The notes under the pieces: generated by a model
The model's input: only the letters and a program-made list of their open reading frames with translations
What the model was told of the DNA's origin: nothing
Databases searched by the model: none
IMG/VR virus record: IMGVR_UViG_3300030380_002211
Length of the DNA: 64,000 nucleotides
Strand: one strand, 5' to 3'
Origin: an uncultured virus (IMG/VR IMGVR_UViG_3300030380_002211)
Lineage: Duplodnaviria > Heunggongvirae > Uroviricota > Caudoviricetes
In this document: positions 34,913 through 38,554 of the stretch, piece after piece
How the letters are laid out: each line of letters opens with the position of its first letter
How positions within the stretch are numbered: position 1 is the first letter of the stretch
Made by a program: the position numbers and the translations under genes

Positions 34913-35388
34913 GAGTTTGTACTCTCCTTTATTGTCCAACGTCCGTCTGGTAATTGACAGGCTGTTCCTGTCTCACTCTCTCTTGATATGCCATTCATAG
35001 GCCAAGAATGTTCGATACTAATGACTGAAGTATATTCTCTACATCTAGCACTATTTTTTACATAAGTTCTATTGATTGTTATAGAACCCCAATTACCATT
35101 AGCAGAGTTACCCCAACTTGTATGAGACCTTTTGCCTGGTGCTGTGTTTAATGTATCTACAAATATTGCTGTATGTGTATTCATATCATTTTTATAATAA
35201 AACTTTGCACCCCATACGGCACCGACTACACTACAAGCAGCCGATATAGGCATATTTGCTTGAAGTAATCCTGCACAAGTAGTATNNNNNNNNNNCCCCC
35301 AGCCGTACCTAGATGCGATTTAACTGTATTCATACTACAACCACTTATGTAGTAAGCAAGTATTATTAATATAGTTAATCTAATCATC
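34909..35388 (-). CDS. glycine-zipper/17-kDa surface antigen-like lipoprotein (spans N gap)
   Basis: Lipobox SGC upstream of gap; W.N..GN.G, CREY, GTAC..PDGRW; frame across gap unknown. Confidence 0.7.
35286..35295. other. assembly gap (10 N)
   Basis: nnnnnnnnnn in sequence. Confidence 1.
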
Positions 35389-35510: not shown

Positions 35511-35831
35511 TTACTCTCCTGCAATCCAAACTTCTCGATTATAAAAATATATTTCTTTATCTTTAGGGCCGACAAGATGTGTTTCTCCGTTCTCGTCAAC
35601 CTCTAAAGTTTCAGCTTCAATTACACCTGAAGTATTTATTCCTGAAGAAACATTATATTCTTCTTCCCATTCTGTTTCTTCTTCATCATCTACAAAGTCT
35701 ATAAAATTAAATAAGTTTCTAATTGTATTTAACTCACTAATCGGTGTTGGTAGTATTTGTTTATTACCACAACTAGTTAGTAGTAATGATATAATTAATA
35801 TTCTAAACAATGTAATTCTCTTCGATATCAT
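35511..35831 (-). CDS. putative lipoprotein
   Basis: Lipobox LTSC, acidic mature region. Confidence 0.6.
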   Translation of the reverse strand: MISKRITLFRILIISLLLTSCGNKQILPTPISELNTIRNLFNFIDFVDDEEETEWEEEYNVSSGINTSGVIEAETLEVDENGETHLVGPKDKEIYFYNREVWIAGE

Positions 35832-36043
35832 AACTCATATTTTTCTGTCCATCTATATCACCTTCTGTCCATTGAAAGTAAACTGCTGTTGCTTCTTCGA
35901 AAGTAGAACAACTATAGATAACTTCTTTATCACCGTTCTCGTCATAGTAGACAATATCATAAGTTTTCTTTTGTATACTCATGTCATTATACTATAGAAA
36001 ACTGCAAATGTCAAGAGCATAAGCCAGAATAATAATAGGTCGC

Positions 36044-36496
36044 TCATCTGCCTATATCTTTCACGTCTTTACGACTAATGACTTGATATGCACCTTTATT
36101 ATAAGCAGGTGCAACTGTAAAGTTTTTAGATTCTTCTAGACGCCAATTGTGACTTGGTTTAGTACCACCAGTACCATGAAATTTAGATTTGTCAATGGTG
36201 GAGCCAGAGGGAATCGAACCCACGACCTCCTCGTTGCAAACGAGGCGCTCTCCCGCCTGAGCTATAGCCCCATGTTTCTGAACTATTGGACGATTTTGAT
36301 TTTCTTTTCTGATATCAGATAGTTTTTTGTCAGGATTGATACCGTGACTAATTAGAAATTTTCTGTGTTGTGCTCTCGCCTTTAATAATTTTTGCATCTT
36401 TGGCGACTTACTCATTTTCTTCATACCTAAACTGTTTGGCAGTTTCTTCTTCTTCTTACCATAACTCTTAGGTATATGTACATAAAATAAACCCAT
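36044..36496 (-). CDS. conserved T4-like hypothetical protein containing a nested tRNA
   Basis: H.KFL...G.....; C-terminal FTVAPAYNKGAYQVI...IG motif; consensus promoter and GAGG RBS upstream. Confidence 0.75.
   Translation of the reverse strand: MGLFYVHIPKSYGKKKKKLPNSLGMKKMSKSPKMQKLLKARAQHRKFLISHGINPDKKLSDIRKENQNRPIVQKHGAIAQAGERLVCNEEVVGSIPSGSTIDKSKFHGTGGTKPSHNWRLEESKNFTVAPAYNKGAYQVISRKDVKDIGR
36196..36271 (-). tRNA. tRNA-Ala (UGC)
   Basis: GGGGCTATAGCTCAGGCGGGAGAGCGCCTCGTTTGCAACGAGGAGGTCGTGGGTTCGATTCCCTCTGGCTCCACCA: 76 nt cloverleaf, G3:U70, encoded CCA; one U-U mismatch in T-stem. Confidence 0.9.
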
Positions 36497-36519
36497 AATA
36501 TATCCTCGTTAGTAATATA

Positions 36520-36550
36520 ATTATATACTATATTAGTATACTTGTCAAGC
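36520..36550 (-). promoter_or_regulatory. sigma70-type promoter GCTTGACA-N17-TATAAT
   Basis: Perfect consensus upstream of the tRNA-containing ORF. Confidence 0.8.
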
Positions 36551-38110: not shown

Positions 38111-38554
38111 TTATTCCAATTTATTTTTGAGGGATTCTCTCAAAATACTCGAACCACCGATACGAACATTGATAATACCGTTATAATATTCATCTGTTAA
38201 GAGAACTTGTCTATCAAACTGTTCTTTTGCCTCAAGATAACTAAGTGTTCCTTTACTATTACAATAGTGTAATATCTCTCTAGTGAACTGTTCTTCACCT
38301 ATTTCTTTAACATCTGCATTGAGGTGTTCAGAAGAACCCCAATAGGTTCTCCAGTCACTCTCTTTAGTAGAACGTCTTTTATTCTTCTTACCTTTGAGTG
38401 GTGGTTTGGTAACTTTAAATCTTGCAAGTTTCTTACCAACGTATTTTTTGTTATTTGTTAGATTTGTAATAAGATAAACGAAGCCCTCACAATCAAGTGG
38501 AAGTTCTTCAACTACTTTACCTTTATATATCCATTTAGTCCCAGTCGTCATCAA
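38111..38554 (-). CDS. GIY-YIG family nuclease
   Basis: GFVYLITN....KKYVGKK, YWGS, REIL, YLE, YYN. Confidence 0.85.
   Translation of the reverse strand: MMTTGTKWIYKGKVVEELPLDCEGFVYLITNLTNNKKYVGKKLARFKVTKPPLKGKKNKRRSTKESDWRTYWGSSEHLNADVKEIGEEQFTREILHYCNSKGTLSYLEAKEQFDRQVLLTDEYYNGIINVRIGGSSILRESLKNKLE

What the first reader, a model, noticed from the sequence alone, without database searches (positions are those of the whole stretch)
36044..36496. Complete tRNA-Ala(UGC) nested on the same strand inside a protein-coding gene
Seen: a 76-nt cloverleaf (36196-36271) with the G3:U70 alanine determinant and encoded CCA lies within a 150-codon ORF without breaking its frame, reading GAIAQAGERLVCNEEVVGSIPSGST. 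The ORF has a consensus promoter and RBS, and a C-terminal TVAPAYNKGAYQVI motif that I recognise from T4-like hypothetical proteins. Inference: dual coding, where tRNA excision by RNase P would destroy the mRNA (a regulatory switch), or a tRNA being absorbed into a variable linker. The U-U mismatch in the T-stem and U-G pair in the acceptor stem hint at relaxed selection.
Basis: partly seen in the sequence, partly recalled or inferred. Interest (0 to 1): 0.72.

Follow-up and report, generated by a model that had tools for sequence, protein, structure and literature searches.

The report
tRNA slot inside a pelagiphage gene
A working-looking alanine tRNA gene sits in frame in the floppy middle of a small early gene of a marine SAR11-type phage, and wild relatives carry other tRNAs or none at the same spot, so one stretch of DNA seems to serve as both tRNA gene and protein code.

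Summary
ARAGORN and Rfam (64.3 bits) call tRNA-Ala(UGC) at 36196-36271, inside the 150-codon ORF 36044-36496, which has a perfect sigma-70 promoter and a GAGGA ribosome-binding site.

The ORF is a real gene of T4-like pelagimyophages (HTVC008M gp171, Mosig_00174, phrog_4593). It has a basic N-terminal helix, a variable linker and a conserved C-terminal APAYNKG domain.

- **Relatives:** in two samples of 80 loci each, 50 and 33 loci carry a tRNA in that linker, always on the sense strand. The species are Thr, Asp, Ala, Pro or Glu+Ala. In all 83 the frame runs unbroken from an upstream ATG through the tRNA(s) into the C domain.
- **Selection:** the C domain evolves under equal purifying selection with or without a tRNA (dN/dS 0.12 and 0.13). 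The tRNAs show compensatory stem changes.
- **This window:** the closest relatives have near-identical flanks but a plain linker, so this tRNA-Ala is a recent in-frame replacement.

My best reading is one early transcript that is either processed into tRNA or translated through it. Neither fate has been shown directly.

The published precedent is selC nested in selB. The scan has noted in-frame phage tRNAs on other DNA before. An exchangeable multi-tRNA slot appears new.

The parts
36520..36548 (-). Sigma-70-type early promoter, TTGACA-17 nt-TATAAT, 12 of 12 matches. Its -10 hexamer ends 23 nt before the ATG.
   Evidence: Two other 12-of-12 sites lie nearby at 38055-38027 and 36014-35986. Consensus match only; not tested.
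36503..36507 (-). Shine-Dalgarno-like GAGGA, 6 nt upstream of the start codon.
   Evidence: Read from the sequence.
36044..36496 (-). Host gene: a 150-codon ORF of the pelagimyophage family HTVC008M gp171 / Mosig_00174 / phrog_4593.
   Evidence: The identical 150-aa protein (P0001) is on record from 8 contigs.
36272..36496 (-). N-terminal part, residues 1-75: a basic stretch with a confident helix at residues 35-50.
   Evidence: Alignments A1 and A4; pLDDT about 94 for residues 41-50; dN/dS 0.21 in tRNA-bearing relatives.
36196..36271 (-). tRNA-Ala(UGC), 76 nt, with G3:U70 and encoded CCA. It is read in phase 0 as residues 76-100 plus the first base of codon 101.
   Evidence: The tRNA-coded residues lie in the model's low-confidence stretch: nearly all of 72-108 is below pLDDT 50.
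36236..36238 (-). Anticodon TGC, read by the ORF as Cys87.
36221..36223 (-). In-frame GTG inside the T arm, preceded by GAGGAGG. It is the only candidate internal start for the C domain in this window.
   Evidence: Read from the sequence. It is not conserved: the Asp-77 alleles have no in-frame start in or after the tRNA.
36044..36166 (-). Conserved C-terminal domain, residues 111-150 (GGTKP..NWRLEESKNFTVAPAYNKGAYQVI..KDIGR), plus the stop codon.
   Evidence: Invariant columns in A1 and A4; dN/dS 0.12; phrog_4593 match at residues 122-150.

Best explanation
The window comes from a T4-like phage of SAR11-type bacteria (a pelagimyophage). One small early gene of this phage group encodes a basic N-terminal helix, a disordered linker and a conserved 40-residue C-terminal domain. 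The linker serves as the place where these phages keep tRNA genes. In this window it holds an intact tRNA-Ala(UGC).

The gene's own strong sigma-70-type promoter makes a single transcript with two possible fates. It can be cut by RNase P and 3'-end nucleases to release the tRNA; the CCA end is encoded. Or ribosomes can translate straight through the tRNA sequence, which then contributes 25 passenger residues to the disordered linker of the full-length protein. Processing destroys the message, so the two outputs compete for each transcript.

The slot turns over. Relatives hold Thr, Asp, Ala, Pro, Glu+Ala or no tRNA. Only arrangements that keep the N and C domains in one open frame survive.

What is shown here: the anatomy, the recurrence, the conserved frame, and selection acting on both the tRNA and the protein. 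What is inferred: that the tRNA matures, that ribosomes read through it, and that the two fates compete. The function of the protein is unknown.
For: **tRNA quality.** ARAGORN calls it and Rfam scores it 64.3 bits. In 22 distinct 76-nt tRNAs from this slot, 97.6% of cloverleaf cells pair and 19 of 21 pairs show changes on both sides. All 7 distinct Ala tRNAs keep G3:U70.

**The gene is real.** 1433 homologs have E <= 0.01. They include HTVC008M gp171 and Mosig_00174, which have no tRNA.

**The layout recurs.**
- Set 1 is the best 80 of 527 confirmed viral-contig loci. Fifty carry tRNA(s) in the linker: 24 Thr, 13 Asp, 6 Ala and 7 Glu+Ala. All are on the sense strand, and 50 of 50 sit in an unbroken frame from an upstream ATG.
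- Set 2 is the best 80 of 549 metagenome loci, picked with the C domain alone. Thirty-three have a tRNA, including tRNA-Pro, and 33 of 33 are continuous. Thirty-six have no tRNA and 11 are cut by a contig end.

**The frame is selected.**
- Of 37 distinct tRNAs, 25 are open in only one of the three phases, 12 in two and none in all three. The phase actually used is never a closed one. Phases 0, 1 and 2 all occur.
- At least 11 different spacer lengths between the tRNA and the C domain occur within tRNA types, and all differ by multiples of 3.
- tRNAs of 76 nt and 77 nt, and the Glu+Ala tandem, are all kept in frame. So it is the unprocessed RNA that is read.

**Selection acts at two levels.** C-domain dN/dS is 0.12 in tRNA-bearing loci and 0.13 in tRNA-less loci. 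N-domain dN/dS is 0.21 and 0.23. The tRNA read as codons gives pN/pS of 0.67 (Thr) and 1.04 (Ala).

**No separate start in most alleles.** There is no in-frame ATG, GTG or TTG between the tRNA and the C-domain core in 37 of 50 loci, or 28 of 38 distinct sequences.

**The event is recent here.** L002 and L003 match the window almost base for base on both sides, but about 55 nt of plain linker stands where the window has 84 nt containing the tRNA, a difference of +30 nt. The window sits in a clade with 99% support whose other 6 members lack a tRNA.

**Expression context.** The promoter is a perfect consensus match. The hosted tRNAs read GAA, GAU, ACA and GCA, which rank 2, 3, 6 and 9 among codons in 30 large ORFs of the window.

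**Only tRNA present.** This is the sole tRNA in the 64-kb window and in each of five related contigs of 19.6-32 kb.
Against: - Nothing here shows directly that the tRNA matures or that a peptide spanning it is made. Contigs from RNA libraries covered both flanks but none bridged the tRNA, which gives no verdict.
- The C domain can evidently work with little or nothing in front of it. Stand-alone forms of 51-56 aa exist (L143, L149).
- 13 of 50 tRNA-bearing loci do have an in-frame ATG (5) or GTG/TTG (8) after the tRNA. Some gene callers report only a C-terminal peptide of 44-51 aa there.
- In this window an in-frame GTG preceded by GAGG lies inside the T arm.
Nine ORFs are identical between the two collections, and relatedness inflates the counts.
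- The structural model is weak (mean pLDDT 61, pTM 0.26).
- No function is known for the protein, so a functional tie between protein and tRNA is pure conjecture.
Confidence: 0.7

Rival explanations
1. There are really two products. The tRNA is cut out of an early transcript, and the conserved C domain is made on its own from an internal start. In this window that start would be the GTG in the T arm behind GAGGAGG. The long ORF is then a by-product, and the N-terminal part is a dispensable translated leader.
For: Stand-alone C-domain genes of 51-56 aa exist. 13 of 50 tRNA-bearing loci have an in-frame start after the tRNA, and gene callers report C-only peptides there. The window has GAGG, 5 nt, then GTG inside the tRNA.
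Against: 37 of 50 loci have no in-frame start between the tRNA and the C-domain core. The Asp-77 alleles have none inside the tRNA either. The N domain stays under purifying selection in tRNA-bearing loci (dN/dS 0.21). The N and C domains are in one frame in 83 of 83 loci, with at least 11 in-frame spacer-length changes; separate initiation would not require that. The GTG sits inside the T stem and is not conserved among the Ala tRNAs.
Confidence: 0.12
2. The cloverleaf is no longer a working tRNA. It acts in cis as a tRNA-like processing or stability signal in the mRNA, or is decaying, as the first reader suspected from the U-U and U-G pairs.
For: The window's tRNA has a U50-U64 mismatch and a U6-G67 pair. 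One tRNA-less relative, L019, may carry a decayed remnant of tRNA-Thr (anchored alignment z = 2.7; 8 of 1000 shuffles reach the score). That shows tRNAs in this slot can die.
Against: Rfam scores it 64.3 bits. The Ala identity pair G3:U70, the anticodon loop and the CCA end are intact. The mismatch is shared with L028, whose other differences are compensated. Stems covary across the slot's tRNAs. The event is recent, because the flanks are near-identical to tRNA-less relatives.
Confidence: 0.08
3. The open frame is an accident of descent. One ancestral in-frame insertion was inherited and passed on by recombination, with no selection for reading through the tRNA. The protein may not be made at all from tRNA-bearing alleles.
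For: Related sequences share history. The tree of the flanks shows clustered states. Twelve of 37 tRNAs are open in two phases.
Against: At least seven unrelated tRNA sequence types occupy the slot, in three different phases. At least 11 later spacer-length changes all kept the frame. The tree needs at least 14 changes of state. C-domain dN/dS is the same with and without a tRNA.
Confidence: 0.05

Closest known systems
selC (tRNA-Sec) nested inside the selB ORF of Alphaproteobacteria (Mukai 2021, PMC8124441; I read the abstract and sections 2.6 and 3)
   Same: A whole tRNA gene lies in the sense direction inside a protein ORF and is read in frame. A remnant tRNA occurs in some relatives. That paper's proposed model is the one adopted here: tRNA processing leaves a non-stop mRNA, so tRNA and full-length protein are alternative products.
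   Different: There a single dedicated tRNA sits in a C-terminal extension of the very factor that binds it, in bacteria. Here five ordinary elongator tRNA species, or a tandem pair, or none, exchange within an internal linker of a phage protein of unknown function. The frame conservation is documented over 83 loci.
tRNA-Lys inside cox1 of the Armadillidium vulgare mitochondrial genome (known to me only through Mukai's discussion)
   Same: A tRNA fully integrated in direct orientation within a coding region of a compact genome.
   Different: That case is an organelle with a truncated 60-nt tRNA. I did not read the primary paper.
The tRNA gene cluster of phage T4 and its SegB homing endonuclease (PMC2330249; search listing and start of abstract only)
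   Same: T4-like phages carry optional tRNA genes in a plastic early region, and inheritance of that region varies between relatives.
   Different: As I recall, T4's tRNAs lie between small ORFs and not inside one; no call here tested that. No nuclease gene adjoins the slot here. The nearest homing-endonuclease-like ORF in the window is 38111-38554, about 1.6 kb upstream.
Earlier notes of this scan on in-frame tRNAs inside phage ORF linkers (e1-6038251, e1-5770901, e1-5349390, e1-3376188)
   Same: A sense-strand tRNA is read as a flexible linker of a phage protein, with the frame kept open in relatives.
   Different: Those notes concern other genes, other phages and other DNA, each with a fixed tRNA. 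They are unchecked AI notes that I did not re-test. None describes a single slot holding many tRNA species.

Membership tests
tRNA (Rfam RF00005), alanine acceptor | Cloverleaf that scores above the family threshold | tested here: met
   64.3 bits against a cut-off of 29. ARAGORN calls tRNA-Ala.
tRNA (Rfam RF00005), alanine acceptor | G3:U70 identity pair and UGC anticodon | tested here: met
   Read from the sequence. All 7 distinct Ala tRNAs of the slot have G3:U70.
tRNA (Rfam RF00005), alanine acceptor | Matured and aminoacylated in the cell | not testable with these tools
   The RNA runs were held only as contigs and none was informative.
[quoted passage not shown] | The entire tRNA lies on the sense strand inside the ORF and in frame | tested here: met
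[quoted passage not shown] | Coding sequence on both sides of the tRNA is conserved as protein | tested here: met
   dN/dS is 0.21 for the N domain and 0.12 for the C domain in tRNA-bearing loci.
[quoted passage not shown] | The frame through the tRNA is kept in relatives | tested here: met
   50 of 50 and 33 of 33 loci. The used phase is always open. Spacer lengths differ only by multiples of 3.
[quoted passage not shown] | Ribosomes actually read through the tRNA | not testable with these tools
   This needs proteomics or ribosome profiling.
[quoted passage not shown] | A functional tie between the host protein and the tRNA | tested here: inconclusive
   The protein has no known family. The hosted tRNA species vary, which argues against a species-specific tie.
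Pelagimyophage small protein family (phrog_4593; HTVC008M gp171, Mosig_00174) | C-terminal APAYNKG domain | tested here: met
   phrog_4593 E = 3.1e-5 at residues 122-150. tblastn gives 4e-16 to HTVC008M and 1e-12 to Mosig. Ten columns are invariant in A4.
Pelagimyophage small protein family (phrog_4593; HTVC008M gp171, Mosig_00174) | Basic N-terminal helix region | tested here: met
   It aligns in A1 and A4. The N region of 6 of 64 members matches Pfam DUF7216 below threshold (about 17 bits against a cut-off of 27).
Homing-endonuclease-driven tRNA cassette (T4 SegB type) | A nuclease gene next to the tRNA | tested here: not met
   In the window the flanking ORFs are small and unannotated. The nearest endonuclease-like ORF is 1.6 kb away. 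I did not survey the neighbours in related loci.

The most novel reading that the evidence does not exclude
Pelagimyophages keep all of their few tRNA genes (0 to 2 per genome) in one dedicated, exchangeable slot: the disordered linker of a single strongly transcribed early gene. tRNAs of at least five species are swapped in and out there as in-frame cassettes. Each transcript is partitioned between RNase P processing and translation, which ties the phage's tRNA supply to the dose of the host protein. That protein may itself act on translation or tRNA.
Probability: 0.4. Interest if true: 0.85.

Novelty: new variant of a known kind. Interest (0 to 1): 0.74.

Why it matters
Phages of SAR11 are among the most abundant viruses in the sea. 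This result would show where they keep their tRNA genes and how they gain, lose and exchange them.

It is also a well-replicated natural case of one DNA stretch under selection both as a structured RNA and as an open reading frame. The natural variants (five tRNA species, three reading phases, tandem pairs, empty linkers and a possible remnant) already amount to a mutagenesis series. That makes the competition between ribosomes and tRNA-processing enzymes on a single transcript directly testable.

On the practical side, annotation pipelines disagree here. Some call the long ORF, while others report only a 44-51 aa stub after the tRNA, so the gene family is fragmented in the databases.

Tried and rejected
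- **Whole genome:** none is held for this window. The nearest record held, G001, is a 13-kb fragment with neither the gene nor a tRNA. Metagenome records could not be searched whole.
- **Decayed tRNAs in tRNA-less linkers:** Rfam at E <= 10 found no tRNA in 20 of the 30 tRNA-less loci of set 1. Local alignment of 27 distinct linkers against all slot tRNAs never exceeded shuffled controls. My first anchored test was badly set up. The corrected test gave one modest candidate, L019 against the tRNA-Thr of L009, and nothing for L017. The impression that the L002-type linker derives from tRNA-Thr rests on an 11-nt match and is not supported.
- **Excision plus religation of the mRNA (tRNA acting as an 'intron'):** rejected. 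tRNAs of 76 and 77 nt and the tandem pair are all in frame only when they are kept in the message.
- **Expression evidence:** the RNA runs are held only as contigs. Separate contigs from one RNA library cover the N and C parts, but none bridges the tRNA, and the deep cover at 36233-36273 comes from short fragments that match only part of the tRNA and run on into unlike sequence. This gives no verdict.
- **Function of the protein:** Pfam found nothing above threshold for the window protein or for 64 family members. The ESM Atlas gave no usable hit. The search for longer proteins found only 2 hits and no informative fusion. The AlphaFold model was too weak for a fold search, so I ran none.
- **Folding the tRNA in its mRNA context:** the minimum-energy fold did not recover the cloverleaf (z = 0.33). 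This is uninformative.
- **Literature:** searches found no paper on a tRNA nested in a phage ORF. One search was badly phrased and wasted. The pelagimyophage survey PMC7029224 (passages read) reports tRNA genes in only 18 of its genomes (0 or 2 in the table rows shown) and does not mention their position in an ORF; I did not open its supplements.
my notebook first said that no Met follows the tRNA in any locus and gave the split as 52 to 28. correct these to 5 loci with an ATG and a split of 50 to 30.

Full report
**1. What is in the window**

ARAGORN finds exactly one tRNA in the 64 kb: tRNA-Ala(tgc) at 36196-36271 on the minus strand. Rfam's tRNA model scores it 64.3 bits against a cut-off of 29, and it is the only Rfam hit in the window.

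The 76-nt sequence has G3:U70, a U6-G67 pair, a U50-U64 mismatch in the T stem, and an encoded CCA end.

The minus-strand ORF 36044-36496 has 150 codons and contains the whole tRNA. tRNA bases 1-75 are codons 76-100, read as GAIAQAGERLVCNEEVVGSIPSGST, and the anticodon is read as Cys87.

A 12-of-12 TTGACA-17-TATAAT promoter lies at 36548-36520. A GAGGA sits 6 nt before the ATG.

After the tRNA there is no in-frame ATG, GTG or TTG before the conserved C-terminal core. One in-frame GTG lies inside the T arm, behind GAGGAGG.

It only omits that everything is on the minus strand.

**2. Which phage, which gene**

The window encodes T4-type replication and tail proteins: a gp32-like SSB, primase, DnaB-type helicase, NrdAB, tail tube and baseplate proteins. 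Its GC content is 31-36%.

Among 50,697 phage records, tblastn found the ORF's protein only in Pelagibacter phages HTVC008M (two records of the same genome) and Mosig. Two further hits were to bare tRNA sequence. In those two phages the homologs are gp171 (125 aa) and Mosig_00174, both annotated as hypothetical, and neither contains a tRNA.

Pfam gives nothing. phrog_4593, of unknown function, matches residues 122-150.

The large protein database holds 1433 relatives with E <= 0.01 among proteins of 82-263 aa. The 120 listed are 124-150 aa, and most come from marine assemblies. An identical 150-aa protein is recorded on 8 contigs, which argues against an assembly chimera.

Alignments show three parts: a basic N-terminal region, a variable middle, and a strongly conserved C-terminal domain, GGTKP..NWRLEESKNFTVAPAYNKGAYQVI..KDIGR.

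An AlphaFold model built on 64 family members is poor overall (mean pLDDT 61, pTM 0.26). It does give a confident helix at residues 35-50 and a short helix plus hairpin in the C domain. Nearly all of residues 72-108, which include the tRNA-coded stretch, score below pLDDT 50. The tRNA is therefore read as part of a linker predicted to be disordered.

**3. The same place in relatives**

*Set 1.* A scan of viral contigs confirmed 527 loci, and the best 80 were kept. ARAGORN finds tRNAs inside the homologous gene, on the gene's strand, in 50 of the 80:

| tRNA in the linker | Loci |
|---|---|
| Thr(UGU) | 24 |
| Asp(GUC) | 13 |
| Ala(UGC) | 6 |
| Glu(UUC) followed by Ala(UGC) | 7 |
| none | 30 |

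. In all 50 tRNA-bearing loci, the stop-to-stop frame that holds the C-terminal motif runs back through the tRNA(s) to an ATG that opens the conserved N-terminal region.

*Set 2.* The first ranking could favour long in-frame matches, so I drew a second sample from metagenome contigs using only the 50 residues after the tRNA as the query. That scan confirmed 549 loci, and the best 80 were kept. Eleven genes are cut by a contig end, 36 have no tRNA and 33 have one. Two of the 33 carry a fifth species, tRNA-Pro(UGG). The frame is continuous in 33 of 33.

The two sets overlap in part: 9 ORFs are identical between them, and together they hold 66 distinct tRNA-bearing ORF sequences. I saw no split gene in either set. 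L103 lacks the N-terminal region, but it sits on a short contig whose name gives a coverage below 1, and I did not pursue it.

**4. Is the open frame selected?**

- **Reading phase.** The slot's 37 distinct tRNA sequences are open in one phase only (25 of them) or in two (12), and never in all three. The phase actually used is open in every case. It is phase 0 for Thr, Pro, Ala and two Asp types, phase 1 for another Asp type, and phase 2 for Glu.
- **Spacer lengths.** Within tRNA types, the distance from the tRNA's 3' end to the APAYNKG anchor takes at least 11 additional values, for example 47, 50, 53, 59, 65, 68 and 77 nt for Thr. All differ by multiples of three.
- **tRNA length.** tRNAs of 76 nt and 77 nt, and the tandem pair, are all in frame only when they stay in the message. 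That rules out an excise-and-religate scheme.
- **Protein-level selection.** C-domain dN/dS is 0.12 in tRNA-bearing loci (40 distinct sequences) and 0.13 in tRNA-less loci (26 distinct). For the N domain it is 0.21 and 0.23. The tRNA read as codons shows no protein-level constraint, with pN/pS of 0.67 for Thr and 1.04 for Ala.
- **No alternative start.** An in-frame start codon between the tRNA and the C-domain core is absent in 37 of 50 loci. It is an ATG in 5 and a GTG or TTG in 8. The Asp-77 alleles have none inside the tRNA either.

The simplest reading is that the C domain is made by ribosomes that started at the gene's ATG and read through the tRNA.

**5. Are the tRNAs real?**

On a gap-free alignment of 22 distinct 76-nt tRNAs of the slot, 97.6% of stem cells form standard pairs, against 35-50% when the partner columns are slid. 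Nineteen of 21 pairs show changes on both sides. Part of that covariation is between tRNA species. But it also occurs within Thr, where the acceptor stem varies as GCCCCTT, GCCGCCG or GCCGTGT, each with a matching 3' strand.

The window's U50-U64 mismatch is shared by the tRNA-Ala of L028, which differs elsewhere through compensated changes. So the mismatch is a lineage trait and not a sign of decay.

The hosted species read GAA, GAU, ACA and GCA, which rank 2, 3, 6 and 9 among codons in 30 large ORFs of the window. This fits a role in codon supply.

**6. Turnover of the slot**

The window's gene and those of L002 and L003 are almost identical up to about 12 nt before the tRNA and again from its CCA end onward. 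In between, the relatives have about 55 nt of ordinary linker where the window has 84 nt: 8 nt plus the tRNA, which is 10 codons longer.

On a tree built from the flanking domains only (80 rows, with L033 left out because its C domain is cut), the window falls in a clade with 99% support whose other 6 members lack a tRNA. The five states need at least 14 changes across the tree. The tree rests on few columns and many forks are unresolved.

Very similar N domains carry Thr, Asp or nothing, and the junction lies right after CCA.

tRNA-less linkers are not recognisable dead tRNAs. The one modest exception is L019.

**7. Expression context**

A promoter-like site matching at least 10 of 12 positions lies within 120 nt upstream in 34 of 49 evaluable tRNA-bearing genes and in 16 of 29 evaluable tRNA-less genes. 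It is often only 5-12 nt from the ATG, which would give a leaderless message. These are consensus matches only.

The tRNA in this gene is the only tRNA in the window and in each of five related contigs of 19.6-32 kb. The published pelagimyophage survey found tRNA genes in only 18 of the genomes it analysed (0 or 2 per genome in the table rows shown) and says nothing about where they lie (PMC7029224, passages read).

**8. Mechanism, and how sure**

*Shown:* the anatomy, the recurrence, the conserved frame, and selection at two levels.

*Inferred:* the early promoter makes one RNA. If the cloverleaf folds, RNase P and 3' nucleases release the tRNA and leave a non-stop 5' fragment and a 3' fragment with no start codon. 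If ribosomes get there first, they unfold it and make the full-length protein, with 25 passenger residues in its linker.

Why this particular gene? Most likely because it combines strong early transcription with a linker that tolerates any sequence. The conserved flanks would also let co-infecting phages exchange the insert by recombination.

I put 0.7 on this package. The main rival, separate initiation of the C domain, gets 0.12. It is kept alive by stand-alone C-domain genes of 51-56 aa, by the loci that have a start codon after the tRNA, and by the GTG in this window's T arm.

**9. Comparison with what is known**

The published precedent is selC nested in selB (Mukai 2021, PMC8124441). That paper calls itself the first report of a whole tRNA inside a bacterial ORF and proposes the same either-or model. 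It also cites a mitochondrial tRNA inside cox1.

My literature searches found no description of this layout in a phage.

This scan has noted in-frame tRNAs in other phage genes on other DNA. Those notes are unchecked and I did not re-test them, but they led me to the Mukai paper.

What differs here is a single conserved slot that hosts five tRNA species, tandem pairs or nothing, in the T4-like phages of a very abundant marine host, with population-scale evidence that the frame is kept open. I class it as a new variant of a known kind.

Noticed in passing
window 38055-38027, 36548-36520 and 36014-35986 (all minus strand): Three perfect 12-of-12 TTGACA-17-TATAAT sites lie within 2.1 kb, each in front of a small ORF. 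The overall number of promoter-like sites in the region is no higher than in shuffled sequence, but the perfect ones look like a series of early promoters.
   Followed up: partly
window 35982-36014 (minus strand): The -10 hexamer of the promoter downstream of the tRNA-hosting gene ends only 3 nt before the ATG of the next ORF (35803-35982, 59 aa). That suggests a leaderless message. Many relatives of the tRNA-hosting gene show the same geometry, with the -10 hexamer 5-12 nt from the ATG.
   Followed up: partly
window 35287-35296: A run of 10 N bases lies inside a small minus-strand ORF (35226-35387). It is an assembly gap or a masked stretch about 0.75 kb downstream of the gene.
   Followed up: no
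window 38111-38554 (minus strand): This 147-aa ORF matches homing-endonuclease PHROGs (phrog_7363, phrog_314) and phrog_447. It lies just after nrdB and 1.6 kb upstream of the tRNA slot. A possible role in moving the region was not examined.
   Followed up: no
L037, L038, L040, L061-L064 (viral contigs): In these relatives the gene's N-terminal part shrinks to 18-22 residues, and two tRNAs, Glu then Ala, follow 5 or 8 nt apart. Both are read in frame, in different phases. The arrangement looks like a tRNA operon whose leader and spacers are translated.
   Followed up: partly
L019:1486-1848 compared with L009:1501-1893: The linker of L019 aligns with the tRNA-Thr of its close relative L009 but lacks the T arm. 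It may be a decayed in-frame remnant (z = 2.7; 8 of 1000 shuffles reach the score).
   Followed up: partly
L143 and L149 (metagenome contigs): Here the family is reduced to stand-alone proteins of 51-56 aa made of the C domain alone. They sit directly after a small membrane-protein-like ORF.
   Followed up: no
RNA-library run X15, record 2, laid on window 36149-36330: A 543-nt contig matches both flanks of the slot, but 174 other letters stand in place of the window's 180. This is another in-frame allele of the linker.
   Followed up: no
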